NCBI RefSeq assembly: GCF_018977255.1
Contig: NW_024704743.1
Coordinates: 69,626,001 to 69,690,000, forward strand
DNA length: 64,000 nt
Reading direction: 5' to 3'
DNA from: Callorhinchus milii
Taxonomy: Eukaryota
Position numbers and translations under genes: made by a program. Of the stretch, positions 14,608-64,000 are shown one piece after another. Under the pieces are notes generated by a model. The model was not told the origin of the DNA. It saw only the letters and a program-made list of their open reading frames with translations, and did no database searches. Position 1 is the first letter of the stretch, and every line of letters begins with the position of its first letter.

Positions 14608-14638
<31 letters not shown>

Positions 14639-15912: not shown

Positions 15913-15914
15913 GT

Positions 15915-25349: not shown

Positions 25350-25695
25350 AGTTCTGCAGCGTAGTGTTTAGTCCGCTCGCCTGGCAAGCAAGAGGACCCG
25401 GGTTGGGTTCCATGCCCAGGCAAGACAAAACTTCGGCACGTTTCCTTACTTCACAGGCCTTTGTTTTACCTAGAAGTAAGTGGGAACCTATTTGTTAGTC
25501 GATTGGTGGATCGCTTTCCGGGGAAATGGATCGCTTTTCTAATCCATCCCCCCAAAAAAATTTGGTGACTGTTTGTAGGAAACTGCTGTCGCATTTCGCC
25601 CGCAAAATACACTTTACAATATATTCTGTAAAGCGCTTTGAGACATCTCAACTACGTGGTAAGGCACTATATCAAATGCAAGGAGTATTATTATC
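25350..25695 (+). mobile_element. SINE family A copy
   Basis: Same head, core and tail. Confidence 0.88.
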
Positions 25696-26834: not shown

Positions 26835-27080
26835 CAGGGGTGTCTAACCAGTCGATTCCTGCTAGGTAGTGTCATTCTCAATAAAAACAAGAGGCAGGAG
26901 CAATAGTTACCAGAATTTAAATATTAAAGATTATATTTTTATTTCGAGATGCATGTAGTATTTTGTGTATCTGGCTTTGTTTTCAATAGGCTCAATAACA
27001 AGGCTGTTCTCCTTTCTCTTGTCTTTTTGATCGTGCACCAGAGCGCCACCTAGCAGGGATTGTCCAGTTGGAGACCCCCA
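26835..27080. mobile_element. hAT-superfamily MITE (246 bp) inside a family B SINE
   Basis: Exact 8-bp target duplication GTCTAGGC at 26827-26834 and 27081-27088; degenerate TIRs CAGGGGTGTCTAAC / GTTGGAGACCCCCA. Confidence 0.85.
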
Positions 27081-28289
27081 GTCTAGGCTGACAATGAAGG
27101 AACACTGGATGAGATGTGAAACCATTTTCCTGCCTGGCTGTTCAGATGGATGTTAAAGATCTCATGACAGTATTTGAAAAGGGAAGCAAATTGCTATGAC
27201 AGTATCATGGGAGTTTCGCTCAGTGGAGGATTAATCAGCAATTCACTGTGTTAATCGTGTCTTTCATTTCATGATTATTAGCGCAGCCTTGCTAAACATC
27301 AATTGGTTGCCATGTTTGCCTACAAATACACCACTTGAAAATTTTAACATGGTAGGCGGTATATTAAATGCACGGATTCATTTTATTATGAAATCCAGAA
27401 AAAAAATCCACTGAGAACTGAATATTTATAAGCTCATGATGAGATTTAAATCAGAAACATCAACATATATATATAATATATATTAATGAAGGCAACTTGA
27501 TATGAAAAAAAACAGTTCAAATGAAATAATTTGTTTCATTTTGAATATTAAAAGTAAATTTACAATAATTGTAAATGAGATTGTTTATCTCACCGATAAA
27601 CCAAGACGAGAAATTCCTCACATCATTAAAAGAAGCCGTTAAATCTTAATTCAACATTATCTTTTGACAGAATTTAATGAAAGTGTTCAAGTGCCCCACA
27701 GTGTTCAGTATAAAGCAATGTCATTGCTAGGTATGACCGCAAGGCAGTCAATCTAAGCCTCTGCTCAATAATAAGAGTATTAATAAAGCCTCAGTAGGCA
27801 CCGAGTCCACAATGATTGCAGCACATGGGTCCATAAAGCAGCCAACCTTCTGTATGCTGCTTTAGCAGACCTTCAGCAGAGCGCTTCAGAAGACCTTCTA
27901 AGCGCTCCGAGATGGCATCCGACGTGAAGGACACTTTATAAATGCAACTTGTTGTTGTTATCTGTATGTATTCTCTGCATGCTTGCAGATAGGAATGGGC
28001 TCACCCACCAGTGTAACTCCTGCAATTGGGAGGTGAACGCATCCATCAAGGAGATTTGCACACACATGAGTAAAATGCAGGAGCACATGACAATGAGCAC
28101 ATACTTCGGTCACACTGCACATCTCAGTACATATCTGTCAAGTGTCACTCATTACCTGTGCCTAAAGGAAAAGATCAGTTGTATAAAAGCAAAATAAACA
28201 AAAGTTTGAACAGTAAAAACTAAACAGGATATCCATCTATAGGTCAGAACTGTGAATGGCTCCATTTGATAATAAACCTAATGTATATG

Positions 28290-28670
28290 TGAGTCCTGTA
28301 GCTCAGTGGTTAGAGCGCTCACCTCCCAAGCGAGAGGACCTGGGTTTGATTCCCGGGCAGGGCGAAACGTTCGGCAAATTTCCTTACTCCACACGCCTCT
28401 GTTTACCTAGCAGTAAGCAGGAACCCGGTTGTTAGTCGATTGGCGGATGGCTTTTCCAGGGGTAATAATCCCTTCAAAATAAATAAACAATAATAATTTG
28501 GTCACTCAATCTATGACTGTTTGTGGGACACTGCTGTGCACAATTGGCTGCTGCTTTTCACGCACAAAATATAGTCAATTCACTTTACAGTATATTCTGT
28601 GAAGCACTTTGAGACGTCTCGAGAACGTGATAAGGTGCTATATTAAATGCAAGGATTATTATTGTATTAT
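28290..28670 (+). mobile_element. tRNA-derived SINE, family A, full-length reference copy
   Basis: Pol III A box TAGCTCAGTGG and B box GGTTTGATTCC; core GGCAAATTTCCTTACTCCACACGCCTCTGTTTACCTAGCAGTAAG; L2-like tail with (TTA)n. Confidence 0.92.
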
Positions 28671-31600
28671 TATAATGGCAGATTTCAACTGAGCAAACAA
28701 GCAGCAACTCTGGTAGATGAGTGCCTCCCTGCAGGGACTGGTCAGCGAGTACTGACTGCCCAGGTATATACAGTGACTGCCTGGCAATGTGAGGTTTCAA
28801 TTACCCCATTCATTACTTAACTTTCCAGAGAAACTGTGCAAAACAGAAAATAACAATTTGCTCTTGTAAATATTCCATTTACCGTTTTGAAATATCCATA
28901 CAATGAAAACAGCTTAGGAGGGGGTGACACCAGTTCAGGTGAGGGGTAACTGTTACTGTGGCCATCCCTGCTTTTAAATACAGTACTACAGTGGGATTGT
29001 GGGCATAATATTACAATCACTCCACTCTCTTCTGACTCTTGTGGTTCAAATCTCCCTTTCATTCTGGTCTGTACTAGTCATCATAAACTTTCCCAACTCT
29101 GCGCTCATATGAACACCATCAGTAGAAAGAAGATTAAACAGAGATGTCTGGCAATCTCTAGCCTTTAGGTTTCTAATTTACTATGTGCTGGGTGGGGGTG
29201 GCAGGCGGAAGACAGAGTGGGATCAGTTTTCCCTTAGCCTGCTTTAATCTCCTGCCATTTTATAGACTTTCCGTCTCAGTCAGCTATGATTCGTTTTTAT
29301 TTTGCTATCAGAAAGCTTTGCTTGTTAGGTTCTTCATCCAGTCTTGGCATAAGCAAGCGATCATTGACACTAATTCACTGACATCAGAGATCGTTTTGCC
29401 CACAAAATACACAGTCAATTGAAGCGCTTTGCAGGGTCTCGAAGATGTGATAACAACAACAACAACTTGCATTTACATAGTGCCCTTTACGCGGGGTAGC
29501 ATCATGGAGTGCTTAGAAAGTGCTATATCAAATGCAAGGATTATTGTTATTATTATCTATCAAAAATATATTAGCACGTGTTGAACCAAAATCAACTTAA
29601 GTTTTATTCCTTCCTGAAAGTTGGGCGATTTCCACACTGATGGCTATGTTTTTCACACTAGTTTTCAAGGGAGAAATATTAGGCTGGTAAAAGAGTAGTG
29701 AGTACAATTGCCTGAAATTGTGGTGTTTTACAAAAAATACATTGGCGCTCGTGTGTAAATTTTATTATCCTTATTCTTCATAGTGCAAATATTGCCAATA
29801 TTTTTTAGGGTGAGACAAAGGAACGTCTCATGAACATACTTAATTCATCATTTTATCTTTCTTTTATTGTACTTAGCAGTTTATCAGAAGCTCCCTAATA
29901 TAGAAAACAGCAGAAGAGACTTCTGTACATTTTGCATCAGTGGAGGAATTGTCTCTATGATACCTGGCAGCTAAGAACAGCTAAGAAGGGGGAAGAGTGG
30001 ATGATCTTTAATGTCCACTTGATCACACAGTAGACAGGACCTAAATTAACCTAAATGAATTTTGTGCCTGCTTTTTCTACAACAATAGCTACAGATAAAA
30101 TAACAACAGATAATTAAATTTGTGCTTAAGAGAAACAAAACAGATGACAGTATCTACAAGAGACCGGGTTATCTGGGGTTGACCTTCTGTGGGCGTCACT
30201 GTAAAATATTTTGTTAGTTCTATTTTCCTCCTGTTAAAAGAGAGACAACCTAGGTTGTGACTTTCTTCTCTGGATGGTGTTAGTGCTGCTCAGTGAATGG
30301 CTTCAGGATAGGGACTAAAGTGCAGAGGCACAAATCCAACCATTGTCCCATCAATCATAGATTCATTTGAATCTATGATTGAAACATTTGTTTCTGAGCT
30401 GGGAGTTAAGCAGCCTTATAACAGCAAAATATATTAATCCTTACATTTGGTATAGTACTTTTCACGTTGGGAGGACACTTCAAAGCACTTCACAGGATTT
30501 ACTATGAAGTGGAATGACTGTGTGTTTTGTGAACGAACTCATGTCAAACCATCTCAAAGCGCATTATAGGTAATTATCATCAAGAGACATAACAACTGGC
30601 CAACGTTGCTTGGGACATTGGGAGAAACTCCCTTCTCTTTAAAAATAGCTTTGTGGAATATCTACCAAAACAGACAGATTTAAGACAAACAAAATAATTT
30701 AAATGAAAATACTCATTAAAGATGAAAGCATCTTTTTACATGTTAATAAGGTTGATGTTTTGACGTTGTTTAAAGGAAAACAAGCTTGTCTCAATTCGTA
30801 GCATTTTCACCCTTTGGTCATTGTGGGTTCAAATCCCAAGTCAGCAGATCTTGATCTTATAGTCTCGGCTGCCACTCGAGTGTGGTGCTGAGGGAGTTCT
30901 GTAATGTCAGAGCTGCTGTCTGTCAGGTGAGGCATTGAATGAAAGTCGCATCTATGTGTTCATTTGCCTAACAGCTGTTTGTTGGACTTTGCTGGTGCAA
31001 ATGGCTGCTGTTTTTAACACTCTTGACAGTAAGTAGGTGAAGCACTTTGAGACGTTTTGACTTGATATGAAGCATTTTGAGATGTTTCAACGTGATAAGG
31101 TACTACGAAAATGCAAGTCCTTGCTTTCTTCAAGATGTAAGATTAGTCAGTGATTTCCCTTTGGAGCCTCTCTGGAAAGCTGCCACGAAGTCTTTAACAC
31201 GTTTTAACAAAAGATGCTCTGAGCAATGCCTCAACATTCTTCTGCAGTGATGTTGTACCGGTTGACCAATTAGTTTCTAAACATATCAACTGAACTGTTG
31301 AAATGTTTAGGTAAATACATTTTTTTTTAAAATTGCTGCTGCTTCATCAACTTCTTTGTAAACATATGAACTGAAGCGTAGATAGTTTAGAAATCAAATA
31401 CACAGAGGTTAGCTTTTAGTACCGGTTCATCAGCTACATATCAAATTAAGTCTTCACAACAGAGTGTGAGTGTTTTGAGTTCCATATGTTGCTGGGAATT
31501 CTGTATACGTTTGACTGTTAACAGCCTGTTCAATTCGAATAAAAACACAACAGACTCTGAACGGCATATGTTGCATTATCTTTTAGTGAATTTAATATTA

Positions 31601-32394
31601 AAGATACAGAATGTGTCGTGGGTTGTGAAATGTACAGACAGCCTGACTGCGTTAAGCTCTTTCAGCTGTCAGTATGGTTTCAACACTTAACTCCTGTTTT
31701 CCTTCCTTTCGTCTCCTTCTCATTGTATTCTGTGGCAGTGTCCATTTCCCCCAACAAACCAGGGCAATTAATAGTTTTTCTACCAAAATATTAATAGTAA
31801 TTTCTGGTCAAACATTACACCCCAACGCTTCCTACAGACTATGACAGGTCGATCAAGACTATTCGTTCGACTGAAAGACAGTGAAAGGTGGAGTTCGTCC
31901 ACTGAACTAATTCATTCATTGATGAACCAGTACCTTCACAAATATGATCTCTCAACCTTTACTTCGACTGCAGCTGGAGCATTATGTCCAGTTAATTTTG
32001 GATGCCTCTTTGTAGAAGGGATGTCAAGGCCGTATCTAGGGTGTAGAAGAGATTCACTGGGATGATATCAGGGATGATTCATCATTTGGGATTAAGGGAC
32101 AACCTTTTTCTGAATGTCATATAAAAATAAGATGTGAAAGCTCTTCAGTATTCACAGGGGCAGACTGGCTATATGAGAATTTAGGAAAGTATGTTCATGC
32201 ACATCAATGTCCCAGAAACAGCTGTGAAGTGAATAAGCAAATTTTCTGGTGGGAGGTGGGATTATCAACCACGACCCCAGAAAAACTTTCTTCTCTTTTC
32301 AAACAGTGCCATGGGAACTTTAGAGTCCACCTGAACAGGACCTTGGTTAAATGTCTCATCTAAAGCACAACACCTGCAACAATTCAGCATATCC

Positions 32395-32775
32395 TGTCTT
32401 GCATCTCAGTGGTTAGAGCACTTGCCTCGCAAGCAAGAGACCTGGGTTTGATTTCTGGGCAGAACAAAACCTTAGGCAAGTTTCATTACTCCACACGCCT
32501 CTGTTTACAAGTAGGAACTTGTAAGTAGGAGCACGGTTGTTAGTCGATTAGTGGATCGCTTTTCCGGAGGTAACAGTCCCTTCAAAAGATATAATAATAA
32601 TTTGGTCGCTCAATCAGGACTGTTTGTGGGACACTGCTGTGCAACTCGGCTGCCGCGTTTCGCCCACAAAATATACAGTCTATTCGCTTTACAATATATT
32701 CTGTGAAGCGCTTTGAGATTTCTCAAAGACGTGGTAAGGTGCCATATCAAATACAAGGATTATTGTTATTATTAT
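32395..32775 (+). mobile_element. SINE family A copy nested in a minus-strand family B SINE (32190-32975)
   Basis: Family B sequence stops at ~32394 and resumes at ~32776. Confidence 0.87.
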
Positions 32776-34744
32776 CCCCAGTATTGCATTGGAGTGTCAG
32801 TTTAGACACTACTAATGTGAGTTCAAAGCAGCCAGCAACTTAAGGCTTTAACATGCAACAACTTGCACTCATATAGTGCCCTCCATGCAGGGTAGGGTCT
32901 CAGAGCACTTAAAATCTTCTGACTACCTTCTGATTTAGAGGTGAGAGTGCTACTGACTACCCCAGGCTGACTCACAAGAAGATTGTGCCAGGCTGACAAT
33001 CCAGCACAGTACTAGGGGGAGGACTGCACGATCAAAGACATCCTCTTTTGGAAGATGACTGTTGAGGTGGGAGTTAAAGATCCTATGATATGATTCATAA
33101 GAGAAGGGAGTTTTTCCTGATGTCCTGGCCAACAATCCTTCAGATTCATTGGTCTTTCAATATGACTGCATGTGGGACCTGGCTAAGGCCTACAACAGCC
33201 TACAACTATATTTGCCTTATCTGTGAAATCTTTTGAGATGTTTTGACAATAATAAGGTTCTATGAAAGTACAAGTTCTTTCTTTCCAAGTAAGAGTTTCA
33301 GCAAGAGAACCCCCTCAAAATTACCCACGTGGTTTTTGTCATAGTTGTAATGATCACCAAACTAAACAGCAAATAACGTGCAGTTTAAATGTAGTACTCG
33401 CCTCTGAATCAGAAAGTTGTGGGTTCAAGCCCTCCATCGGGACTTTGAACTCACAGTCGGCTATTCAGATGGGTTTTAAAGATCCCATGCTACTGTTTGA
33501 AATGAGAAGAGAGTTTCTTCATGATGTCCTGGCTGACAATCCACCAAATAAAATTGGTCATTCACTTCATGGATGTTTGTGGGACATTGTTGTGTTCAAA
33601 TTGTCTGCTGTATTTGCCTAGAAATTCACAGTTACTACAATTTACAATGAAGAGCTTTGAAATATCTTGACAGTGTGATAAAGTGCTATATCAAAAATGA
33701 AGATTTTTATTAAATTTTTTAACTGTAGAATATAAATTACCAAACCTCACCCTGCCCCTCAAACTCTGCTTTCAGTGCTGATGTAAACAAAGCTGGGCCT
33801 GTAGATAGCCTTAGTGGTTAGTGGGATAGCAGCTTTTCTAATGCTATTTTTGTTAGTGAAAACTGTCATGTCACTAATCAGCAGTCAAAAGCCGGAAACC
33901 GAATGCATAACCTGGTTTCACTGACGTCAACTCGGAGCATGGTACCAAGGGAGGGGAAGTGAATACTGCTTGACGCATTGGAGTAATTCACGGTTAATCA
34001 ATTCAAAATTCAGATCAAATGTTAGACATCATTGTTAGCGTTTGCCTCTCTTTCTGTCTCAGGATGTGGGTATCGCTGGCATTTTGTCAGCATTTATTGC
34101 TCAACGCTGGTTATCCAGCGAAGGTGATATTTGCCCTTCTCTTTAACTGTTGCAGTTCTGATGGCGACAGTACTTCCCCAATGCTGTTTAGGAGGGAACT
34201 TATAGTTGGTTCAGTGCTTTGTTCTCTCTAACATAAAACACTTCTTTTACTGATCAGTGAAGCACTTGGACATAGGTATTGGTAGAACTGATGGAAGATG
34301 GAACATCATCTGGCAACAGCATCCAGAAAAACTGGAAGAGGATTTACAATGTAATAATAATAAATAATAATAATAATAATCCTTGCATTTGGTACAGCAC
34401 CTTATCTTTGAGACATCTTAAAAGTACTTCACAGAATATGCCGTCACGTTGTCAAATGTCTCAAATCGCTTCGGAGGATTTCATAACCAAGTATAGTGAT
34501 CTTATTTGTAGGCCAACACAACAGCTAATTTGTGTATAGCAGTATCCCATCAACAGCCATGAAGTGAGTGACCCATTTTATTTTGGGGATTGTTGGCCAG
34601 GACACCAATAAAAACTCCCTTCTCTTTTCAAAAAGTGCCATGGGTTCCTTAATGTGCACCTGAACTGGCAGAGTGGACCTAAATCACAAGGTTTGAGATA
34701 AAGGTCATTCAACCCATTTAATCTAATTATTTTAGAATATCCAC

Positions 34745-35000
34745 TCTAACAGCTTCCTATTACAGTATCAAGCTGCTTCGTAAATCTATAAAGTTCCCTG
34801 GCCTCTAGCACCCTTTCCTGGTAACCCATTCCAGCTGTTGGACACTCACTGTGTAAAGAACAGCTTCCATTAATATGACACACTTCAGGTGGGGTAATGT
34901 CTTGGAGAGCTGAAAATACTTTTTGGTATTTAGTCTTGGTGTAAATACTCATCGTGTGTCCTAAAAATATACTTCACATCCTTATTCTCTGGTCGACCCC
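34745..35000 (-). mobile_element. Old CR1 fragment
   Basis: RVLEARELYRFTKQLD resembles the CR1 ORF2 C-terminus. Confidence 0.6.
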
Positions 35001-35414
35001 TGTCTTGTTTTGGGCAATTACCAATTTTGGGCAACAACCACGGAAACTTATAAAATGGGCAAACTATACAGAGCTACAGTATTTGATTCATGTATTAATG
35101 ACCTCACCATAAAATGGAGAAAACACAAAGTTCAGTTACTGTAAATAATTTGAAACTGTTACATTTCATTATACTGAATCAATCATTTTTTATAGTCATA
35201 AAAGGAGACACGATATCTAGAAATCCAGCCTCCTTGTAGATGGCACAAACACACTAAATCAGCCTTGTCAGAGGGAGGTCTTGTCTCAGTGGCTTTTCAG
35301 ATACATAGACTCACAGTGGACTCTTATGGACTGTAATTTCTCAGCAGTAGGACAATGTCTTAAAACGTTATAGTTTGCTGAATTTTCAAGAATTCATAGA
35401 TTCAGTCTTAATTT

Positions 35415-35835
35415 GTCAGCCTAGCTCAGTTGGTAGCACTCTCACCTCTGAGTCGGAAAGTTGTGGGTTCAAGCCCCACAGCAGGACTTGGAACTCATAC
35501 AGTCTAAGTTGACGCTGGAACGCAGTGCTAGGAATGTGCTGCATTGAGATGTCGTCCTCCAGATGAGATGTTAAACCGAGTCTGCCTGTTAAGGTGGATG
35601 CTAAAAATTCCATGGCACTGTTCAAAAAGAGAAGGGAGTTTCTCCCAGTGTCTTGGCAAATAATCCCCCAAATAAAACTGTTCATTCGTTCCAAGGCTGT
35701 CTGTGCGACATTGCTGTTCGTAAATTGGTTGCAAATTGGTTTATCCGCAAAATACACGGACACTCCACTTTACAATATATCCTGTGAAGTCCTGATATGT
35801 AAGGTGCTATACTAAATTCAAGGGTTATTATTATC
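35415..35835 (+). mobile_element. tRNA-derived DeuSINE-like element, family B, reference copy. Other copies approx. 3870-4230(-), 10770-11190(+), 12045-12225(+), 19920-20280(+), 30785-31125(+), 33385-33710(+), 34365-34680(-), 38180-38540(+), 44810-45065(-)
   Basis: Head GCTCAGTTGGTAGCACTCTCACCTCTGAGTC...GGGTTCAAGCCCC; core AGATGAGATGTTAAACCGAG...CCATGGCACTGTTC...GTGTCTTGGCAAA resembles the Deu domain of AmnSINE1/SacSINE1 (recalled); (TTA)n tail. Confidence 0.88.
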
Positions 35836-36614
35836 CAGTTTGTGGCAGGTTTCCTCAAATTCTTAAAAACGACAATTTTTTTCAGGTCTACTAATAATTG
35901 CCTACCATCACTGGAATTCTCTTCCAAAAATATTTTTGCCTTACTATGTCTTTCCGTCCTACGAAAACCTTTGAAAAACACATCTTTTTCACCCTGTCTT
36001 TCATCAGAATTTTTGAATCTCCCTTTCCCTTTCTTTGAATGAAAGACATGATATGCCACCTAAGGAACCTAATGCATGTTTGGCATTGTACCACTATAAT
36101 TTTGCTTTCCAACAAGAAGTGTAAATTAAAGATGGTTTCAGCAGTGAGATTCATATCTGCACATAGTATAAATTGTGATGGGTACCAATCACACAGGGCT
36201 CCTTCTTTGTTCATACTTTGAATTGCAGCTGATCCCACGACCACCTCTTCTGCAAGGTTGAAATCTAACAGCTGATTTTGGTGCTGCTCTGCACAATATA
36301 TTCTGTGAAGCACTTTGTTATGTTTCAACAATGCAATGAGGTGCTATATCAAATGCAAGGATTAATATATTATTATTATAGATATTTGTTTTGTTCCTGA
36401 TTCACAGTAGTGTAGTGCAGGATGCATATATCAGACTTCACGCTCCACACTGATTTACTGGCGGGTGGTTCTGTTCCACAAAGCAAAACGTGTGTCAGTC
36501 ACAGGAATACTTGGCAAGTAACATATGCTTAGCAATACAGAGTGAAAAAATATTCCATTGTGTTCACAATTCATTAGTTTACTTTGCGGTAATGGGAACA
36601 GTTAAACCCCTTAC

Positions 36615-36759
36615 CATTCTGCGTTGTAGTGAAGTCCAGGAGTTTATACTCATATGCAATGCCCACTTTGGTTTCTACCTGTGCTCTCTTCAGTGTTGAG
36701 TAGATTTTGCCTGGGCTGTTTTCACTGGGCTTCTCCAGCTTTGGCAGTCCACAGCCCAT
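36615..36759 (-). CDS. RFTN1: Raftlin-1, first coding exon (145 nt, ends phase 1)
   Basis: Encodes MGCGLPKLEKPSENSPGKIYSTLKRAQVETKVGIAYEYKLLDFTTTQN, the raftlin N-terminus with G2 myristoylation and C3 palmitoylation motif. Acceptor ttag ends at 36771 (11 nt of UTR); donor G|GTAAGG at 36614. Confidence 0.96.
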
Positions 36760-53276: not shown

Positions 53277-53306
53277 CTAGACTGTAAATCTGTGTACTCT
53301 TTTCTC
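53277..53306 (-). CDS. DAZL: DAZL last coding exon, EKRVHRFTV-stop
   Basis: cttttag acceptor then GAG AAA AGA GTA CAC AGA TTT ACA GTC TAG (cf. DAZL DKRVHHF). Confidence 0.85.
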   Translation of the reverse strand, partial: EKRVHRFTV

Positions 53307-55164
53307 CTAAAAGAATGCAATGTTTTTCAGCAAAAAATCGTATTCAAACAAATTGCATTTGTAATATTAATTAATAGAAGTGGCAGGTGAGCGCCGCAAA
53401 TAAATGAATTGTCTTACATTTAAAAACAATTGTCAAACTCTGAATCAGTACTGCCTTTGCCACAATACGAAAAACGAGACTCCGCAGTAACTATTCAGAG
53501 TCCTGAAGCAATTCACTTATATTGCAGTTGTTGGGATTCACAAAAAGAGACATAGTGCAACTTCTAATCAGTGGTGACTGATATCATGAGCTTTTCCAGC
53601 AGTTTCTGGGGATGTCATTAATGTCAGGAAGTCCTCTCTGGATACTGCAGGGCCACGGTGTACCAGTGTGCTCAACTCAGTTTATTGAAGCCCAGTATAA
53701 CTAGGTCACAATATAATTTCCAGGTTCATACCTTAGTGAATCCAATTGTCTACACTAATTGAACTGTCCCCATTTGGCAGATAAATGATCCCAACCACCA
53801 GCTCGGGTGTGGATCCCTGACTGTTCAGCGTCTTGGGACGTCCTCCTGACGTGAAAGGAGCTATACAAATGTAATTTGTTGTTGTCGTTGTTAGCACTGT
53901 CTGTGGGGGTGAGGGACGAAAGGAAAGAGAAGGCTGGCACTATCAAAGAGAGAGAAGCTATGTGAGGCAAGACAGGTTAAAATTGGACAATTGTTCCACA
54001 CACTGCTGAATACAAGGCTTTGTTTCATCTGTTGCATTAAACTCAATTGGCTGGTCCTTTCGGCTAATATCAAGTGTAGTATCTGTTCTTGTCAATTACT
54101 CCTTGGGATATGTGCCTGCCAGAAAGATCTCTTTTTCAGATTTGCTTGCGTTTACATGTCTACAAACAAATCTTCCCATAAAGCTTTGTGGGAGGATTCA
54201 GCTCCTGGCATTGATATTGCAGTACTTCTGATCTGAGGAGAGGAAGCCGAGGAAAATGGAACTAGTTTGAGCACTTGATCACTAGGGTCAGGCCGGACTT
54301 GCCTGGTGGGAGAGGTGATTCGGTCACCTGTCTTGCTCGGGTGGTTATGAAGACAGGTTTCACGTCTGCATCATCCTTTGACGATATGGGATCCAAGAGT
54401 GTTTAGGGGGTGGATGAGTGCATTCCTTGTTCCCTGGAGGAATGCATTTTGGTCTTATTCAGGATGAGTAGGGCCTAATTTCGCTTAACAAAAATAATTA
54501 GCTTAGTTGGCAGTATCCTCACCTTGTTCAGAAGCTTGAGGGTTCAAAACCTCATAGTGAGACTTAAGCTCTTTATCTAGGAAGAAATTCTAGTATATTA
54601 CTGGAGGAGTGCTGCATTAACACAAAACTCACACGTTTATTCTGGTCATTTATGTAAACTTTACAATGTAGTAGAATCCCATTATAACATGACATTGGGT
54701 TCATAAAATCCCAAGCAGCGTTATAATAGGGCATTACACATGCTCACAGAAAGCTGATTGGCGTCCACCACTAAAAATTGGCTCCACGTCTGAGTTCATC
54801 ATCATCATCGTCAATTACTGCACATTGCCATGACTGGCAAGTCTCCACTTTTTAACGTGATAAGACAGACAGCTTTTGAAGCAACATAATTTGAAACAAG
54901 CTTGCTGGCTTTCTGCAGTCTTTTTGGTAACTAATTATCAGGGTTTACATTCCAATCTCACTGTAAAACAACCCATGTTAAAAACAGGGATCTACTGTAT
55001 TTTGAAAAGCAGGAAATGCCCTCATGATAATCCTCCTCCATTCAAATTCCACAAAAAAGCTTGTTGGTCTTTCAATTAGTTTTTCTTTACAGGGCATAGA
55101 TGTTTGGTGCATTTATAAACCTGCTAAAGATGAAAGTACCTCAAGTATAAGCAATGTAGACATT

Positions 55165-55588
55165 TCAAGATCCTCATCCTCACCTACAAGGCCATTCACG
55201 GCCTCGCTCCCTCCTACCTCTCCGACCTACTATCCCCCTACCTACCTTCCCGTACCCTCCGTTCCTCTGGCTCTGGTCTGCTCCACATCCCCCGCCCCAA
55301 CTGCCCTACCATCGGTGGCCGGGCCTTCAGCCTCTCAGCCCCGAGGCTCTGGAACTCCATCCCCCAGTGCCTTCGCCTTGCTGCCTCCCTTTCCTCCTTC
55401 AAGGCCGGTCTCAAGACCTTTCTCTTTGACCGTGCCTTCAGCTCCCCTCTCGACTCTCTACCCCCCTCCTCGCTCCCTCCCCTCACCCTGACCATTTCCC
55501 CCCGCTCGGGTCCTGACCTAACTGTCCAGCGCCTTGGGACGTCCTCCCGACGTGAAAGGCGCTCTATAAATGCAATCTTGTTGTTGTT
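55165..55588 (+). mobile_element. L2 3' end
   Basis: Very similar to 9125-9500, same C-rich body and (TTG)n tail. Confidence 0.9.
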
Positions 55589-55719
55589 CAATGTGATCAA
55601 GCATTCTATCAAATATGATATTATAAGAGTTGCTCCTTCAACCACAACTATATCCATGTGAATAAGCTAGTTACTCAAAACAAACTTGTTTCAGGAAACT
55701 AAACCATACAGGTATTCAA

Positions 55720-55936
55720 TGTGGTTTAACATTACAATCTGGAATGCACTGCCTGAAAGGGTGGTAGAAGCAGATTCAATAGTAACATTCAAAAGGGAAT
55801 TGGATAGGTACTTGAAAAGTAAAAAAATTGCAGGGCTATGGGAAAAATGTGGAACTAACTTGGATAGCTCTTTCAAAGAGCCAGCACAGGCATGATGGGC
55901 CAAATGGCCTCCTTCAGTGCTGTAAGATTCTATGAT
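55720..55936 (+). mobile_element. CR1 LINE 3' end
   Basis: WNALPERVVEADSIVTFKRELDRYL and tail GGGCCAAATGGCCTCCTTCAGTGCTGTAAGATTCTATGAT. Confidence 0.88.
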
Positions 55937-56599
55937 ACAATACCATTTACATAGAGCCTTTCAATCTGGAGGACGTCTAAAAGCATGTCAGTGATGGATG
56001 GTCAGCCAGGCTGGAGTGTGGGAGGCGAGAGAGGTGGAGTGGGGAAAATTACACAAATTTTAAAAAAAACACAGAATTACAGTACAGAAGCCCATTCAGC
56101 CAATAAAGTCTATGCTGGCGTTAGCTTTTCTATTGAAGCTTCTGAACATGAACAAGTAATTATTTAATTTCTCTCAAGTGTTGTTAGAACAAATACCTGT
56201 TGAAGTTTAATCTAAGACATTCCATGTTCTAAAAGTCCTCTGTGTAAATGTTTCTTCCAACCATCCTCTTCTAGTAATAATCCTTAATTTTACATCTACA
56301 TTATTATTCAATTGCAGATTAGCGAAAATGATTTTTCTCCATTTGCCCTTTCAGAACTGTGAAAACATATTCCAACAACCTATCCCTGGAATTTCCATGT
56401 GTAGGTGGGTTGCATGGAAATCTCAGCTTGGTTTGGATACTCTTAAGCACAGTGATGGGTTTCTGCATGTGTCAAGACACTCAGCTGATCAAAAAAAACT
56501 TAAGATTTCACCACCTCCACCAACAACCAACTCTACCAGAAAAAAACTATGACCTCTCACCCCACCCTAGCACCCACTGCATCATTTCCAAGACTGTGA

Positions 56600-58480
56600 T
56601 GTCCTTGCTCCTTCAAATTACAGATCATGGAAAGACCAAAAGTGTGGTCAACTCCAAGCTCCTCTTCTCCATCACCAACCGACTCCTCCACCCACCCTCT
56701 CATGCCTCACCCATCCTCTCCTTCAACGCCAATTGATGCTGGACTTCTTCAAAACCAAAGTCGAGGGGATCCACTCAGCTACCTCTGCCCTTCCGTCTAC
56801 TAGCTCCTCGCCAACCACACCCCAGCCCCTACCCATCCCTCCGTCCACATCTTCGAACCCGTCTCGCCTTTCTCTCTCAGCACTACTATAGCCCACATGA
56901 AACTGACCACCTGCTCCCTCGACCACATCCCTACCCCTCTCCTGATCTCCCAGCTCCACCTCCTTGCCCCTCTACTCACATTTCAAAAACCTCTCCCTGT
57001 CCACTGGCACTGTTCTCACCCCTTTAAAAACATCCATCATCACTCCTATCCTTAAAAAAAAAACTCCCTGGACCCATCCCTGCATTCAAATTACCACTCC
57101 ATCTTCAATCTCCCTTTCCAAGATCCCGGAACAAGTAGTTGCTTCCCAGCTTCGTTCTTTCCTCTCCCGCCACTCACTTCACGCACCGGACCAATCAGGT
57201 TTCCATGCCGCCCACAATACAGAAACAGCTTTGGTCAAAGTGACAAAAGACATTTTGTCCATCTGCAACCAGGGCTACCTCTGCCTCCTCGTCCTCCTTG
57301 ACCTCTTTGCTGCCTTCGATACAGTTGACGGCTATCCTCCTCCACCGCCTTTTCTCTCACCTCAACCTTCATGGTTCTGACCTTGAATGTTTCAGATCCT
57401 ACCTCTCACACCATCTTCACTTCATCTCCACAAACAGCTTCTCCTCTCGCCCCTGCACCATCTTGTGCGACATTCCTCAGGGCTGTCCTTGGTTCCCTCT
57501 TCAATATCTATATGCTCCCTATTGGTGACATCATCCGCAGACATGGGTTAACTTCTACATGTATGAGGACGACACCCAACTCTACCTCTCTGCCTCCACC
57601 CTGGACTCCAGGACCACTGCAGTCATGACAGAATGTCTTTCAGACATCAAGTTATATTTGCAAGATATCTGAATGAGAGCTACCTTTGTACAGTTGAACA
57701 TCAACAAGTCCTAACCCTCATGATTGGCTGCCATCATCACCTCCACACATCAGGCACTGACAGCATCATCAACAAGGATGCACACTCCACCTCACTGAGC
57801 CATCCGGAACCTTGGTGTCTGGTTTGACCCTCAACTATCCTTTCAACCCCACATCCATGCCATGATCCACTTTGCCTTCCCCCACCTCCACAACATCACC
57901 TGGCTCCACCACTGTCTCACACTGCAGGCCGCCGAGACCCTCATGCACACATTCATAATATCCAGGCTTGACTACACAAACTCCCTGCTTATTGGCCTCT
58001 CCAACTGCTCCTTCCTTTGGCTGCAGATCATCCAGAACTCTGCAGCCTATGTCCTCTCCAGCACCAAGCTCCGTGACCCTATTACCCCCATCCTCACCCG
58101 ATTCCACTGGCTTCCCATCACACAGAGGATACAGTTCAAGATCATGATCCTCACCTTCAAGCCCTCCATGGCCTTGCTCCCCCCTCAGCATCCTCCAACC
58201 TGCTTCACGTCCCCCACCCCACCATTGGTGGACCTTCAGCCACTTTGTCCCCACCGTCTGGAACTCCACCCCACAGTCCCTCCACCTCGCTCCCTCCTTT
58301 GCCCCCTTCAAAACCAGTCTCAAGACCCTCCTCTTCGACCATGCCTTTGATCACCCGCCTTCCCCGTCCTCCACGCTCCCCGATCCCAACCCCCAGCTCG
58401 GGTCGGAAACAATGGTTGTCCAGAACCTTGGGATGTCCACCTGACATGAAAGGCGCTATACAAATGTAATTTTGTTGTTG
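56600..58480 (+). mobile_element. Degenerate L2 LINE (~1.9 kb) with frameshifted reverse transcriptase
   Basis: RT motifs QSGF..HNTETALVKV, LVLLDLFAAFDTVD, GDIIRRHG, ISRLDYTNSLL in shifting frames; (TTG)n tail. Confidence 0.93.
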
Positions 58481-59050
58481 TCAAAGAGATATGTTTTGAG
58501 ATGTGCCTTGAAAGAAGATGGGGAGTGAGTCAGAGGAACTCCAAGATGGAATTGCTGCCTCAAAAATAGCTTTCTCAGAAGCAAAGGAGACATTGAACAG
58601 GGAAGACATTTTACTTCCTCTACACAAGAGAACCATCTTTAAAATCAGTCGGGCACTGGACACTATTGATTCTATCGACTATGTACCAACATCTTTCCCC
58701 TTCCAATGAGGAATCAGGCAGCATTACGCACCTCCGGATTCCTCATTGGAAGGGGAGTCAGAATCTAGCATTCTCCATCAGGGTGGCCCAGCCCTTCCAC
58801 CCACAGGGCCAGATGAATTGTTAATCAAAACTGACAAAAAAGTTGTCCATGCTCATCAGGCTTTAGGAAAAGCAAGAGCCGATCAGGAGAACGTATTGTA
58901 CTACAAGTAGAACTGTTAGTTTAAACCTGCTGCACACTAAGTCTTATTAAGCTTTTGTAGTTACATTTTAAGATCTGATGAAAAATTGAAGGATTCCATA
59001 TTCAGATTAAAAATATAACTTGTAAGCATCTCACTGTGAATATAACTCGC

Positions 59051-59146
59051 CTTTACATAATCAGCTGATGTGCGACGATGGGTTCTGTGCCTATTCACAG
59101 GCAAATACATCCATGACTGTGTCTGCACTCCACGATCAACATAACT
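59051..59146 (-). CDS. DAZL: DAZL penultimate exon (96 nt, phase 0) with GC donor
   Basis: SYVDRGVQTQSWMYLPVNRHRTHRRTSADYVK (cf. KSVDRSIQT...QDDYFK). tttcag acceptor; homologous exon end is followed by AAG|GCGAGT. Confidence 0.87.
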
Positions 59147-59324
59147 CTGAAAAATAAACATTGAGCCTTAGGAATATAAGAATTTAAAAGGACTGACAAA
59201 GACCATTGCAGTCCATCTGGCCGATCCGAAAGAAAAAAAATGCTACTCTCTCTTTATCAGAGGAATTTGCAAATATTACGTCCCTTAAAATGTAGTTGAA
59301 TCCAAAAGCACCAACAGCAACAAA

Positions 59325-60325
59325 AGTACAACAACAACAAAATTATATTTGCATAGCGTCTTTCATGTCGGGAGGACGTCCCAAGGCTCTGAACAGTCAG
59401 TTTTGGACTCGAGCTGGGGGTTGGAATCAGGGAGGGTGGAAGGTGACCGAAGGCATGGTCGAAGAGGATTTTGAAGGAGGCCAGGGAGGGATTGAGGTGG
59501 AGGGTCTGTGGGATGGAGTTACAGAGGGTGGGGTCAGAGTGGGGCGGGAGTGGAACATGAAGCAGTCTGCTGAGAGGAGGGAGTGGAAAGTTGGTAGGGG
59601 GTTAGGAGGTGGCAGAGGTAGGGGGCTGCAAGGCCATGGAAGGCTTTGAAGGTGAGGACCAGGATCTTGAACTGTATCCTGTGTGATGGAAAGCTAGTGG
59701 AGGCAGGCAAGGATAGGCGTGATTGGGTCATGGCACCTGGTGAGGGAGAGGACTTCTGGATGTGCATCTGGATGATCTGCAGCCTATGGAGGTAGGAGTT
59801 GGGGAGGCTGAGAAGTAGGGAGTTTGTAGTCGAGCCTGGATGTTATGAATCCATGTATGAGGGTGTGGTGTGAGACAGTGGCGGACCCGGGAAATGTTGC
59901 AGAAGTGGAGGAAGGCAAAGTAGGACATGGCACGGATGTGGGGTAGAAAGGATAGTTGAGGGTCAAAAGGACAAGAAGTTTGGACTGGCTCAGTAAGATG
60001 AAGTGTGCATCCTTGGATGGTGACGCTCTCAGCGCCTGAGGTGTGCAGGCCTGACTGGAGCCAATCAGGAAAGCTTCCGTCTTGTTGATATTCAACTGCA
60101 GAAAGTTATCTCTCATCCAGGACTTGATGTCTGATAGACATTCTGTCAGGATAGCAGTTGTCCTGGAGTTGAGGGTGGAGGCAGAGGGATAGAGTTGGGT
60201 GTCATCCACATACATGTGGAAAATGACCCCATGCCTGTAGATGATGTCACCAAGAGGAAGCATATAGATATTAAAAAGGAGGGGACCAAGGACAGAGCCC
60301 TGAGGAACTCCACTGAGTGTTGGAG
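59325..60325 (-). mobile_element. Degenerate L2 LINE (~1 kb)
   Basis: SGVPQGSVLGPLLFNIYMLPLGDIIYRHGVIFHMYVDDTQLY RT core; tail appears as (CAA)n near 59330. Confidence 0.93.
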
Positions 60326-60758
60326 ACAATTGTTGATATTAACCAGAAAACACTACTACCCACCCTTTGCTTTCCTGCTTTCAAAATCTCACATGGCTCA
60401 GCACCTGTTGAAAGAACTGAAAGGCAATGCTTCTCAAAAATCTTTGCCCCCCACTCACCCACAATGAAACGGCACAATCTGAATCTTCCAATTATAGAGC
60501 AACATCTAAAAATGTATGTTTAATGTAGTCCTTTATAACGGTTATCACAATGCAGCACATAGAGGACAAGCACATATTTTTCCTCCCAAAAATGCAACAA
60601 ATTTCAATACTATTCAGAACAAAGCTACATCAGAAACAAAATAGTTGAAACAACTGGTTATCTGCCAGGTGTGAATCACACAAGAAAGACTGAATGTTTC
60701 ATCTAGAAAAATAGAACAAGTCAGTAAAATTAAGGAACAATAACCTGAAAAATAAAAA

Positions 60759-60855
60759 TCTAGAAGGGAGGGAGAAAATTTCTCTCCCTCCCTTCTAGAA
60801 AAATTTTCTTCCCTTGGGAAGGGAGGAGAGAAAATTTCTCTCCTCCCTTTCCAAG
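60759..60855. repeat. Two adjacent, related purine/pyrimidine palindromes
   Basis: 60759-60799: perfect 17-bp arms, 7-nt spacer. 60813-60855: 21-bp arms with one mismatch. Confidence 0.9.
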
Positions 60856-61485
60856 TGATGAAAGTTGAACAGATAACAAAGTTTACTCTATACTGGTGTG
60901 AAGTTGTAAATATAATCAAACGATAAAGGAGCTTTATTACATTCAAACAATATTAAGCTTAAACCACAATTTTAAACAATCCAATAAAACAACAGCTCAT
61001 TGATGTGTGCACCATAATATGGGGCATATTTAATTGAATAAAATGACTGCATATAGTTTCACATAAGACTTGCACAAATGTTCAGCATAAAAGACCATAC
61101 AATTCACTGAGCCTGCTCCTCTGCTACCTATATTATCACCTTTCAGTTCAGTAGAATGTCACATAACCACATGTTGATTATCCACAGGTCAACTTATTGG
61201 GATCTGCTGTAGAAATAGAACTGCAATGCCAGCCAAAAAAAACAGGTGTGCATGATTCCCAAAGTACATGATTTACATGTGCAGCATGATCGAACCAGCA
61301 GTGTTAAGTACATTTGTTATAGGTACAATGTGGAGGTAGGGAGATAAAGAAAAAGGCAGAAGAAAAAGACAAAGTGGTGGCATATTGTAATACAATTCCT
61401 GATGGAAGACGTTATCATTGTAGCCAATTTCTATTTTGCAGGATGACCCATTATTCATAGTCTTCATATCCACAAAAGGTCCTAC

Positions 61486-62150
61486 AACAACAACTTGCAT
61501 TTATATAGCAACCTTCACCAGAGCAATGAACAGTGCACTTAAATGTGCCAAAACTTGACGCCAAACTGGGGAGAAGAGGGAGATGACCATAGGCACAGTC
61601 GAAGAGGTTGGTGTTCAGGTATAATCTGAAGGCAGGGAAGGAGACATGGCGGAGGGATTGATGAATAGAGACCCATTGGTTCAGGACCATAGTGGCTGAA
61701 GGCATGGCCATTGATGAGGTGGGGATGAGGGGCACTCAGCATTCCATTCCAACAATTTACCTACGGAATTTCCATGTGTAGCTGGGATTCAAGGAATTCT
61801 GTTTGGTTTGGATACTCTTAAACACGGTAATGTGTTTCTGCATGTAACAGACACCCGGCTGCCAAAAAAAAGGGACATGCAGGGGCTGGAGACAGCAGGG
61901 AGTGGGGTGTAAGCAGTCGGAGAGATAGGGAGATGCCAGGTAAATAGTTGATTTGCAAAGGAGTATGAGGATCTTGAAATCAATCCATTCTGTGGCATGG
62001 AGCCAGTGAAAAAGGGAGTAGTTTGGTGCGTTGAGGACGCGGGGGGCAGAGTTCTGAATTAGCTGGATTTTGAGAATGGTGGAGTTGGGGAGACCGGCGA
62101 GGAGGGCAAAAATCGTAAGCGGAGATGAAGTGATGGTGATAATTGGTAAA
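61486..62150 (-). mobile_element. L2 3' fragment interrupted by a short repeat at 61746-61871
   Basis: LAGLPNSTILKIQLIQNSAPRVL...WLHATEWIDFKIL; (CAA)n tail near 61487. Confidence 0.85.
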
Positions 62151-62268
62151 GTCACTACAAAGCCCACTTTCCAACTCTTTCCATACATCCTAATATTTTT
62201 ACTGCTCAAGTGCTTATTCAGTTCCTATTTGAATGACTACTAATCCAGTCTCATCAGCCACTTATTAC

Positions 62269-62391
62269 CTTTTCCACAGGATCTAAAGCTGAAGACGGAG
62301 CCTGCTGTGCTTCACATTCTCTTTGAACAACTACAGGTCCTGGATTGATCATTTCAGGGTATGGAAAATTCATATAGGTTGCTGAGGTAGT
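62269..62391 (-). CDS. DAZL: DAZL exon (123 nt, phase 0)
   Basis: TTSATYMNFPYPEMINPGPVVVQRECEAQQAPSSALDPVEK (cf. DPGAEVVPNECSVHEATP...QK). attag acceptor, AAG|GTAATA donor. Confidence 0.85.
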
Positions 62392-63061
62392 CTAATATTG
62401 AAAAGAAATGAAACAATCTTTTAGTTTCTTGCAACTAGTTTGCACTTTAATTTGAAGTATAGAAACATCTGTTTGTTTCTCATTTATTGAACCAACTATG
62501 AAAAAGGAGTAAATCTGCATTGTATTTACTGATGGAAGTTAAACACTCCCATTATTTAAAAGGAAGGTAAAAGAGTTGATCACCTTCTCCCAACCATAGC
62601 CAAAGCTTGTTTCAATGCTTTGACTGCCATGTTTTGTAAGGATAGCCAAACAATTCTGGGTACACTGCATCATAGAAGAGATTAATACTTCACTAGTTGA
62701 TTTTTTTAAAAAAACATCCAATTTTTAAATTACAAGTTTGCTTTACAACCAACAACAAAAATTGCAAAACCAACTTTGATGAACAACTTCAGTCATCAAA
62801 TTTGCTATGAAACATGTGTAAAGAACTTGTTGCACTGATGCATTTACTGTTGACAAGGAAGAAAAAGGAAAGAGAAAAAACTATATGGTACAATGGGATA
62901 TGAACAAAAGGCAGAAATGAGATAAACAATCCAGCAAAAATGGCAAAAAGACTCAGCAATGGTCCTGTTGGATGCTTAGTGTATATTGACACCATTCAGG
63001 TTTACTCTCCATGGGTTTTGTTGTATTAGTCCAATTACCTTAATTGAAGTTGTATAATTAC

Positions 63062-63112
63062 CTGAGGTATCATCCATCTCCACTGACTTCCTGGAGGCCA
63101 TTGGGGTGGCAC
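63062..63112 (-). CDS. DAZL: DAZL exon (51 nt, phase 0)
   Basis: VPPQWPPGSQWRWMIPQ (cf. human DAZL MPPQWPVGEQRSYVVPP, also 17 aa). ttatag acceptor, CAG|GTAATT donor. Confidence 0.9.
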
Positions 63113-63575
63113 CTATAAATATCACAAATGTTAAAAAACACAAATGCAGATCATTAAGAAGATGAACATGGTCTTCATCTCTTCAGTGTTTTTAAAAAAA
63201 TCTACAACTAAAGCAGTGAGGTCAATATGTCCCAATACTGCATTTAATCTCAGCATTCCAGGACACTACTAATAACAGACTAACCAGATTCATTGACAGG
63301 ACTTGAAGGGTCAGACCTGTTACTGAGAATAGGGATTCTTGTCACTCAGCTCCTGCTCCAAGCCAAAAACATAACAAGTAGGTAGGTGGTCCTAGCTGGA
63401 CAAGCAGCAGGAAGCTGATTAGACAGGGCTCTCGGTAAACCCTTTTTGTCTTATTTGTTGCTGCTTCATACTGGTTTGACATGGTGAGCAATGAGTTAAC
63501 CATTCAATGCATATTAATCATTTTAAAGTATCAAGCCAACATTCATAGCACTGTTTATTAATTGCTAAAATTTAC

Positions 63576-63656
63576 CTGGTAAGCATAAGCAGGATACTGA
63601 TAACCCATTTGGACTTGTGGTACTGCTGCAGCTGGAGGGCTAGGGTATGAGTATGT
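63576..63656 (-). CDS. DAZL: DAZL DAZ-repeat exon (81 nt, phase 0)
   Basis: TYSYPSPPAAAVPQVQMGYQYPAYAYQ is a Y/P/Q-rich DAZ repeat ending in YxYQ. ctgtag acceptor, CAG|GTAAAT donor. Upstream RRM exons are outside the window. Confidence 0.88.
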
Positions 63657-64000
63657 CTACAGAAAAAAACTAGAATTAAAAGTTTCTACATACAAGGATG
63701 AAGCAATTTCAATAAAAGTGAAATCACAAGAAAAATCAAAATCCAAGGAAAACTGCATTAAGAATATAAGAAATGCTAGACAAAAAAAAGACCAAGGTCC
63801 ACCTTCCTGACGGTCGTATGCACATATGTCCTGAACTACCTATGTACTATATCCCATATTAAGAACAAAAGAGATGCTAGACAAAAAAAACAAGGTCCAT
63901 TTATGACTATTACTGCCATATCCAATTAATAACAGAATCATTTCCAGTTGGTTTAACAAACTTTAAACTTTCCTGAAAGAAAAGAACGACTGCTGAAATC

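What the first reader, a model, noticed from the sequence alone, without database searches (positions are those of the whole stretch)
53277..63656. DAZL-position gene whose protein is a DAZL/BOULE mosaic in a probable cartilaginous fish
Seen: five spliceable exons encoding 126 aa directly upstream of RFTN1 on the same strand. Known: RFTN1-DAZL-PLCL2 and RFTN2-BOLL-PLCL1 are paralogous blocks, so synteny says DAZL, as do PPQWP, VDR..QT, DYxK and EKRVHRF. However, YQYPAYAYQ, QWRWMIPQ and DRGVQ look closer to recalled human BOULE (YQQPAYHYQ, QWQWSVPQ, DHGVQ) than to DAZL (YQLPVYNYQ, QRSYVVPP, DRSIQ). Inference: a slowly evolving DAZL retaining pre-duplication residues. This would date the DAZL/BOULE split to the early vertebrate genome duplications, earlier than the bony-fish origin I recall being proposed.
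Basis: partly seen in the sequence, partly recalled or inferred. Interest (0 to 1): 0.7.

Follow-up and report, generated by a model that had tools for sequence, protein, structure and literature searches.

The report
Elephant shark DAZL keeping ancestral motifs
This is the already annotated germ-cell gene DAZL of the elephant shark, not a DAZL/BOULE hybrid; its few BOULE-like residues are likely leftovers from the common ancestor, and its position shows DAZL is at least as old as jawed vertebrates and likely arose in the first vertebrate genome doubling.

Summary
The five exons are real (126 codons) and are exons 7-11 of an 11-exon gene; exons 1-6, with the RRM, lie right of the window. The protein matches NCBI's Callorhinchus milii 'deleted in azoospermia-like'. 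It is a DAZL orthologue: RRM and tail trees both join it to bony-vertebrate DAZL (100/100), and a separate BOLL sits beside a second raftlin on another chromosome. It is not a mosaic: all 10 scored exons are closer to lobe-finned DAZL than to BOLL, and silent sites show no conversion (9 of 35 alike). Of the three 'BOULE-like' motifs, YQxPAY also occurs in lobe-finned DAZL, and a GVQ form in teleost DAZL. QWRW is special: 8 of 10 chondrichthyan DAZL, 21 of 51 invertebrate Boule, 0 of 106 lobe-finned DAZL, 0 of 120 BOLL, so probably ancestral. Raftlin-DAZL-PLCL-SATB1 and raftlin-BOLL-PLCL-SATB are parallel blocks whose neighbours are published as alpha1 and alpha2, pointing to the 1R duplication. 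This contradicts the 2010 bony-fish origin; I found no paper stating the correction. No cyclostome sequence was available. The scan had not noted this before.

The parts
63657..64000 (-). Intron 6; the gene continues beyond the window. Exons 1-6 in window numbering continued to the right: exon 1 ends 79407; exon 2 75962-75813; exon 3 71899-71808; exon 4 69651-69597; exon 5 67752-67686; exon 6 66993-66866. Exons 2-5 encode the single RRM.
   Evidence: Pfam RRM_1 at residues 46-114 of P0001
63576..63656 (-). DAZL exon 7, 81 nt, the DAZ-repeat-equivalent exon; same length as exon 7 of this genome's BOLL
   Evidence: no Pfam Daz hit, which amphibian and coelacanth DAZL also lack
63062..63112 (-). 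DAZL exon 8, 51 nt, carries the QWRW motif shared with invertebrate Boule
62269..62391 (-). DAZL exon 9, 123 nt; skipped in one database isoform (P0401)
61464..61481 (-). Alternative last exon (5 codons and a stop) used by NP_001279775.1
59051..59146 (-). DAZL exon 10, 96 nt, DRGVQ motif, GC donor; alternative, skipped in the transcript contigs seen, conserved in sharks and rays
53277..53306 (-). Coding part of DAZL exon 11 with stop codon
52496..53276 (-). Probable 3' UTR: covered by the same contig as exon 11, with poly(A)-signal hexamers at 52524 and 52512
1329..36759 (-). Raftlin gene (RFTN1 by position), neighbour; Pfam-matching exons at 36759-36616, 22100-21891, 5313-5107 and 1445-1329, continuing left of the window

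Best explanation
The exons are the 3' half of the elephant shark DAZL gene, an orthologue of bony-vertebrate DAZL that likely binds GUU-type motifs in 3' UTRs through its single RRM to promote translation in germ cells, and whose BOULE-like residues are likely ancestral states kept since a block duplication, probably the first vertebrate genome duplication (1R), split DAZL from BOLL. Shown: gene structure, splicing of exon 9 to 11, orthology, a separate BOLL, the two parallel four-gene blocks, the distribution of the motifs. Inferred: RNA target and function (from mouse DAZL), retention rather than regain of QWRW, the 1R date (synteny only), a burst of RRM change on the DAZL stem before sharks and bony fish parted, and later loss of the tryptophan motif in bony vertebrates.
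For: Exon 2 is 100% identical to NCBI C. milii dazl, and the other 9 of 10 hits are shark or ray proteins, 8 named dazl. RRM tree, 53 proteins: DAZL clade 100/100, chondrichthyans sister to bony vertebrates; chondrichthyan DAZL plus BOLL as one clade rejected, p-AU 3e-8; tail tree 100/100. All 10 scored exons have a higher median score against 106 lobe-finned DAZL than against 120 BOLL. Of 61 diagnostic columns chondrichthyan DAZL follows DAZL at 33, BOLL at 10, neither at 18; the 4 BOLL-like RRM columns and both tryptophans are also the commonest invertebrate state. Separate BOLL on C6. Same order and orientation of raftlin, DAZ-family gene, PLCL and SATB on C2 and C6. PLCL copies lie on 3 of the 4 Hox13-bearing chromosomes, and those on C2 and C23 are the closest pair (66.7% against 62.2% and 56.5%). 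The published table labels OXNAD1 and TBC1D5 as CLGB alpha1 and RFTN2 and HSPD1 as alpha2; 1R paralogon divergence about 527 Ma. RNP motifs align with the solved mouse DAZL RRM.
Against: No cyclostome or amphioxus sequence was identified, so no gene tree dates the split; BOLL monophyly in the RRM tree is weak (66/71) on only 91 columns. DAZL and BOLL themselves are not in the part of the published paralogon table that is held, and RFTN1 is 'nd' there. The raftlin was named by neighbours, not by a tree. Only 6 teleost DAZL models, several with odd tails, and no gar, sturgeon or bichir DAZL were seen, so the point of QWRW loss is bracketed loosely. No functional or tissue data for this protein were obtained.
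Confidence: 0.8

Rival explanations
1. Same DAZL orthologue, but the DAZL/BOLL split is younger than 1R: a gnathostome-only event (2R, a segmental duplication, or late rediploidisation of this segment after 1R).
For: No cyclostome DAZL was found in any call. Shah et al. found none in lamprey. The hagfish gene table has a single PTHR11176 model, beside genes labelled copy 2, the BOLL side. In sea lamprey chr2 OXNAD1 and TBC1D5 start 9.4 kb apart, leaving no room for the block there. Simakov et al. note possible prolonged exchange among Hox-bearing chromosomes.
Against: Flanking genes are labelled alpha1 and alpha2, and cyclostomes hold both 1R copies of the region. A four-gene block in the same order on two Hox chromosomes with a third PLCL on another is what genome duplication predicts; absence in cyclostomes is then simple loss.
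Confidence: 0.15
2. A true mosaic: gene conversion or recombination copied BOLL exons 7, 8 or 10 into the chondrichthyan DAZL.
For: Exon 8 scores nearly as well against the best BOLL (63) as against the best lobe-finned DAZL (70); exons 3, 4, 6 and 7 have the same lengths in DAZL and BOLL of this genome (92, 55, 128, 81 nt).
Against: The motif is QWRW, as in invertebrates (21 of 51), never as in vertebrate BOLL (0 of 120; QWQW in 68). Nucleotide identity to BOLL in exons 7, 8 and 10 is 47-53%, below the RRM exons 3-5 (56-63%); four-fold sites agree at 9 of 35. BOLL-like columns are scattered over RRM and tail. A very ancient conversion of a few codons cannot be excluded by these tests.
Confidence: 0.03
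3. The tryptophan motif was regained by convergence in chondrichthyan DAZL rather than inherited.
For: The motif is four residues in a low-complexity, poorly aligned tail; tunicate Boule (Styela) does not show it.
Against: It sits in the same exon and position, before PQ and an exon end, as QWQW in BOLL, and matches hemichordate, echinoderm, mollusc, nemertean and crustacean Boule. Two tryptophans regained in place is less parsimonious than one loss in bony vertebrates.
Confidence: 0.04
4. The gene is a BOLL, or a third paralogue, as the UniRef label 'Protein boule-like' suggests.
For: UniRef names 4 of the 5 cluster members boule-like.
Against: Trees and AU test; the BOLL-typical NGVAYF segment is absent and has one match in the genome, on C6; an exon-3 search finds 2 loci only.
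Confidence: 0.01

Closest known systems
DAZL of bony vertebrates (mouse RRM structures 2xs2, 2xs5, 2xsf)
   Same: 11 exons with the start codon in exon 1 and the stop in exon 11 (PMC12285545, passages); single RRM, E 4.5e-40 to 2xs2; DAZL-type N-terminal, RRM and C-terminal motifs; position between raftlin and PLCL.
   Different: Keeps GGIDF (10 of 10 against 0 of 106), one more residue at the end of exon 4, and QWRW where lobe-finned DAZL has a QR[SN]Y-type motif (102 of 106); DRGVQ instead of DRSIQ; exon 10 has a GC donor and is skipped in the contigs seen.
BOLL/BOULE of jawed vertebrates (C. milii copy on C6)
   Same: Matching exon phases, equal lengths of exons 3, 4, 6 and 7, GGIDF, YQxPAYxYQ, a QWxW motif and DxGVQ.
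   Different: Separate locus; DAZL lacks the NGVAYF segment; about half of RRM residues differ; silent sites saturated; the DAZL stem is 0.83 changes per column in the RRM against 0.05 for the BOLL stem.
Invertebrate Boule (Ptychodera, Anneissia, Patiria, Littorina, Tubulanus, Panulirus)
   Same: QWRW motif, 21 of 51 representatives.
   Different: RRM closer to BOLL than to DAZL; tails otherwise divergent.
Shah et al. 2010 (PMC2904765) model of DAZL origin in bony fish
   Same: Boule ancestral; DAZL vertebrate-only; Boule present in elephant shark.
   Different: The paper reports no Dazl in the elephant shark genome then available and dates Dazl after the cartilaginous/bony split (passages); this locus and 10 other shark and ray proteins contradict that.

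Membership tests
DAZ family | Single N-terminal RRM of DAZ type | tested here: met
   Pfam RRM_1 46-114; best PDB hits are mouse DAZL
DAZ family | One DAZ repeat | tested here: inconclusive
   Pfam Daz (PF18872) does not hit P0001, P0005, coelacanth or frog DAZL, or BOLL; it hits only the mammalian protein among 7 scanned. Exon 7 aligns with the repeat.
DAZL | Groups with DAZL in a tree of the RRM | tested here: met
   100/100; grouping with BOLL rejected p-AU 3e-8
DAZL | Tail groups with DAZL | tested here: met
   100/100, 31 proteins, 168 columns; per-exon scores
DAZL | 11 exons, start in exon 1, stop in exon 11 | tested here: met
   reference structure from PMC12285545
DAZL | Synteny OXNAD1-RFTN1-DAZL-PLCL2-SATB1 | tested here: met
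   NAD-binding oxidoreductase exons at C2 69.57-69.58 Mb (weak Pfam hits under the cut-off; the name OXNAD1 is recalled from motifs); PLCL at 69.905 Mb; SATB closer to PDB SATB1 on C2 than on C6, 103.9 against 79.4 bits. RFTN1 and PLCL2 are named by position, not by tree.
DAZL | A separate BOLL exists in the genome | tested here: met
   C6 18.25-18.27 Mb, upstream of a second raftlin, HSPD1 and SF3B1
DAZL | Germ-cell expression | tested here: inconclusive
   Spliced contigs in 2 of 3 probable RNA runs laid, one study, tissue not given. Dazl reads reported in bamboo shark gonads (bioRxiv 10.1101/2025.03.13.642935, passage).
DAZL | Binds GUU/UGUU motifs in 3' UTRs and raises translation | not testable with these tools
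   Known for mouse DAZL (PMC7445011 and PMC4884919, passages)
BOLL/BOULE | RRM groups with BOLL; NGVAYF segment in exon 6 | tested here: not met
1R ohnologue pair (DAZL/BOLL) | Parallel blocks on paralogons that split at 1R | tested here: met
   published labels alpha1 and alpha2 for neighbours
1R ohnologue pair (DAZL/BOLL) | Gene tree places the duplication before the cyclostome-gnathostome split | not testable with these tools
   No cyclostome sequence was identified among the 150 representatives listed; 28 of them were looked up by name

The most novel reading that the evidence does not exclude
DAZL and BOLL are 1R ohnologues about 527 million years old; cyclostomes lost the DAZL copy or hide it in germline-restricted DNA; DAZL's RRM was rebuilt in a burst on the jawed-vertebrate stem; and sharks, rays and chimaeras alone keep in DAZL an ancient QWRW tryptophan motif, older than vertebrates and next to the segment mapped for BOULE aggregation, making their DAZL a living intermediate for testing what Boule activity DAZL gave up in bony vertebrates.
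Probability: 0.45. Interest if true: 0.5.

Novelty: already known. Interest (0 to 1): 0.3.

Why it matters
The gene itself is ordinary and has been named dazl in NCBI for this species and other sharks and rays. What matters is the dating and one motif. A much-cited 2010 paper says elephant shark lacks Dazl and puts its birth in bony fish; this locus shows it is at least as old as jawed vertebrates, and synteny points to the first genome duplication. The QWRW motif, shared with invertebrate Boule and lost from the bony-vertebrate DAZL seen here, is a small, cheap target for asking what the DAZ-family tail does. A specialist would find this a useful correction rather than a surprise.

Tried and rejected
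Mosaic or conversion: rejected. First exon-9 borders were off by one base, corrected. Third DAZ-family or raftlin relic beside the third PLCL on C23: no tblastn hit at E 0.05 in 130 kb; genome searches gave 2 DAZ-family loci and 2 raftlin loci. Intron similarity between DAZL and BOLL: many short hits on both strands, read as repeats and not used. NCBIfam: no family over its cut-off. ESM Atlas: nearest clusters boule-like 0.97 and DAZL 0.96, not discriminating. A genome search with PF00970 did not show OXNAD1; motifs did. No run is on record as RNA; those laid are guesses, one probable RNA run (X8) did not cover the exon, and contigs give no tissue or level. The exon 10 to exon 11 join was not examined with reads. 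Hox naming by PDB is firm for neither C6 (no HoxD13 among hits) nor C27 (not tested); C2 favours HOXA13 narrowly, 123.2 against 120.9 bits, C23 favours HOXB13. The structure paper of Jenkins et al. 2011 is not held, so RNA-contact residues were not checked one by one. No structure or complex was predicted, as neither would change the verdict. Two look-ups of earlier findings gave nothing relevant.
Full report
Observation. The five minus-strand exons are at the stated place and join in frame to 126 residues, with AG acceptors, three GT donors and one GC donor. Six more exons lie within 16 kb right of the window; the eleven join without an internal stop, and the form lacking exon 10 reproduces the end of database protein P0001 exactly. 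Exon 2 is 100% identical to P0001, named by NCBI 'deleted in azoospermia-like isoform X1 [Callorhinchus milii]'; its cluster holds XP_007895787.1 and NP_001279775.1/AFK11595.1, while UniRef calls the same proteins boule-like. The species is thus a chimaera, a cartilaginous fish. A raftlin gene begins at 36759 on the same strand.

Splicing. Contigs of two probable RNA runs from one study cover exon 11 and the 3' UTR and continue into the end of exon 9, skipping exon 10; a third probable RNA run did not cover the exon, and a fourth run covers the stretch without that joint. Of 5 database isoforms one contains exon 10 and two end in a short alternative last exon at 61481-61464. Exon 10 is still conserved: 4 of the 9 chondrichthyan proteins printed carry a closely similar peptide. 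So the DRGVQ motif is real but sits in an alternative exon.

Orthology. A search of the genome with exon 3 gave 2 loci, this one and one on C6. The C6 gene has BOLL exons, its exon 6 matches UniRef C. milii boule-like at 100%, and most named proteins among the 120 listed hits (of 178) are called boule-like or BOLL, none DAZL. With a shark DAZL as query, the best 120 of 211 hits are DAZL or DAZ by name, apart from a few without an informative name. A maximum-likelihood tree of the RRM region (53 proteins that I chose for taxonomic spread from those fetched, 91 columns) joins the 8 chondrichthyan proteins to 19 bony-vertebrate DAZL at 100/100, chondrichthyans as sister group. Forcing them with BOLL costs 52.6 log units, p-AU 3e-8. 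A tree of the tail (31 proteins, 168 columns) gives the same split at 100/100. BOLL monophyly in the RRM tree is weak (66/71). The DAZL stem is 0.83 changes per column against 0.05 for BOLL, so most DAZL change predates the shark/bony fish split.

Is it a mosaic? No. Each of 10 exon peptides has a higher median local score against 106 lobe-finned DAZL than against 120 BOLL proteins. Of 61 columns where lobe-finned DAZL and BOLL consensus differ, chondrichthyan DAZL follows DAZL at 33, BOLL at 10 and neither at 18; the BOLL-like ones are spread over RRM (4) and tail (6), and the four RRM ones and both tryptophans are also the commonest invertebrate state. DNA identity between this genome's DAZL and BOLL is 47-53% in exons 7, 8 and 10, lower than in RRM exons 3-5 (56-63%), and four-fold sites agree at 9 of 35, the chance level.

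The three motifs. YQxPAY occurs in 39 of 106 lobe-finned DAZL and 41 of 120 BOLL, so it is not BOULE-specific. DxGVQ-type motifs occur in 5 of 10 chondrichthyan DAZL, 67 of 120 BOLL and 1 of 106 lobe-finned DAZL, but a seahorse DAZL ends with ECGVQT and 3 of 6 teleost models can encode VDCGVQT in a shifted frame, against 4 of 392 other proteins for the looser pattern (indirect). DRSIQ is therefore probably a lobe-finned change. QWRW is the interesting one: 8 of 10 chondrichthyan DAZL, 0 of 106 lobe-finned and 0 of 6 teleost DAZL, 0 of 120 BOLL (68 have QWQW) and 21 of 51 invertebrate Boule representatives, among them named hemichordate, crinoid, starfish, snail, nemertean and lobster proteins. 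The shark gene matches the outgroup rather than the paralogue, which is what retention predicts and conversion does not. GGIDF (10 of 10, 0 of 106, 90 of 120) and equal lengths of exons 3, 4, 6 and 7 in DAZL and BOLL are further retained states. Sampling limits: the BOLL set was found with a BOLL exon, isoforms lacking an exon lower the counts, the invertebrate set was defined from a quick tree, and no basal ray-finned DAZL was seen. Rate: RRM root-to-tip 0.24 here, 0.30 coelacanth, 0.42 marmoset, 0.55 or more in teleosts; in the tail 0.64 for a sawshark against 0.76-0.81 for coelacanth and marmoset, and 0.95 for this species, inflated by a read-through model. Slow only in a modest sense.

Synteny and date. 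C2 carries an NAD-binding oxidoreductase (OXNAD1 by recalled motifs), raftlin, DAZL, PLCL and SATB1 over 69.57-70.46 Mb; C6 carries SF3B1, HSPD1, raftlin, BOLL, PLCL and a second SATB over 18.18-18.63 Mb, the four shared genes in the same order and orientation. The four Hox13 genes lie on C2, C6, C23 and C27, and a third PLCL lies on C23, closer to the C2 copy (66.7%) than either is to C6. C2 Hox13 is nearest HOXA13 and C23 nearest HOXB13; calling C6 HoxD rests on elimination and recall. Simakov et al. place HoxA and HoxD on alpha segments (PMC7269912, passages). In the supplement of Marletaz et al. (PMC10972751; passages and supplementary files 5 and 6, file 6 cut when stored) OXNAD1, TBC1D5 and RAB5A are CLGB alpha1 and RFTN2 and HSPD1 are alpha2; the paper dates 1R paralogon divergence to about 527 Ma, before the cyclostome split. 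DAZL and BOLL have no row in what is held, so the 1R date is my inference from neighbours. For cyclostomes: the hagfish table has one PTHR11176 model (the Boule-related meaning of that id is recalled), without a Pfam RRM hit, next to genes labelled copy 2, and none so labelled between raftlin and SATB on chr1; lamprey chr2 has OXNAD1 and TBC1D5 9.4 kb apart, with a second OXNAD1 copy on chr10 unexamined. This fits loss of the DAZL copy in cyclostomes, but also a later origin.

How it works. By orthology and an RRM that aligns with the solved mouse domain over both RNP motifs, the protein likely binds GUU-type 3' UTR motifs and promotes translation with poly(A)-binding protein in germ cells, as reported for mouse DAZL (PMC7445011, PMC4884919, PMC12285545; passages). 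None of this was tested here. In mouse BOULE the segment needed for aggregation starts at the VPQ that follows the tryptophan motif (PMC9376728, passages); a role for QWRW in aggregation or partner binding is a guess.

Novelty. Shah et al. 2010 report no Dazl in elephant shark and date it to bony fish (PMC2904765, passages); Xu et al. 2009 date it before the fish-tetrapod split without mention of genome duplication (PMC2698988, passages). Eight searches on the origin (listings only, except the papers named here and PMC5080839, PMC8481613 and PMC9492771, passages) found no paper that corrects this or assigns the pair to 1R, but the library lacks most subscription journals, and a 2025 shark preprint already treats Dazl as a germline marker (passage; its supplements were not seen). 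The gene is known; the dating and the QWRW pattern are a modest addition. Interest 0.3.

Noticed in passing
G000:C6 about 18,259,644 (L032, BOLL exon 9): The BOLL exon 9 reading frame shifts by one base in this assembly relative to shark BOLL and to the UniRef C. milii model; assembly error or real allele not determined.
   Followed up: partly
G000:C23:8,741,000-8,744,200 (L054): A third PLCL-like gene on the chromosome with the HOXB13-like gene, with no DAZ-family or raftlin relic in 130 kb around it.
   Followed up: partly
window 10418-9738, minus strand: A 227-codon acidic, low-complexity open frame inside the raftlin gene, between Pfam-matching exons, probably a long raftlin exon.
   Followed up: no
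G000:C6:18,238,602-18,238,811: A raftlin-matching stretch of the C6 raftlin lies in an 855-codon open frame, suggesting a very large exon.
   Followed up: no
P0124 (Pristiophorus japonicus): A BOLL protein carries the name 'raftlin-2 isoform X8', probably from a merged BOLL-RFTN2 gene model, which fits the same adjacency in a shark.
   Followed up: no
P0304, P0339, P0356 (teleost DAZL models): Their C-termini look frame-shifted: a shifted frame can encode the conserved VDCGVQT motif, so these models are probably mis-spliced.
   Followed up: partly
window 60338-59430, 58350-56500, 15938-15612: Decayed reverse-transcriptase-like (LINE-type, by recalled motifs) and SINE-like repeats fill the DAZL and raftlin introns.
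   Followed up: no
window 52000-52409 and 53525-53820: Extra contigs of probable RNA run X1 lie just beyond the 3' UTR contig and inside intron 10; possibly a longer UTR and retained intron.
   Followed up: no
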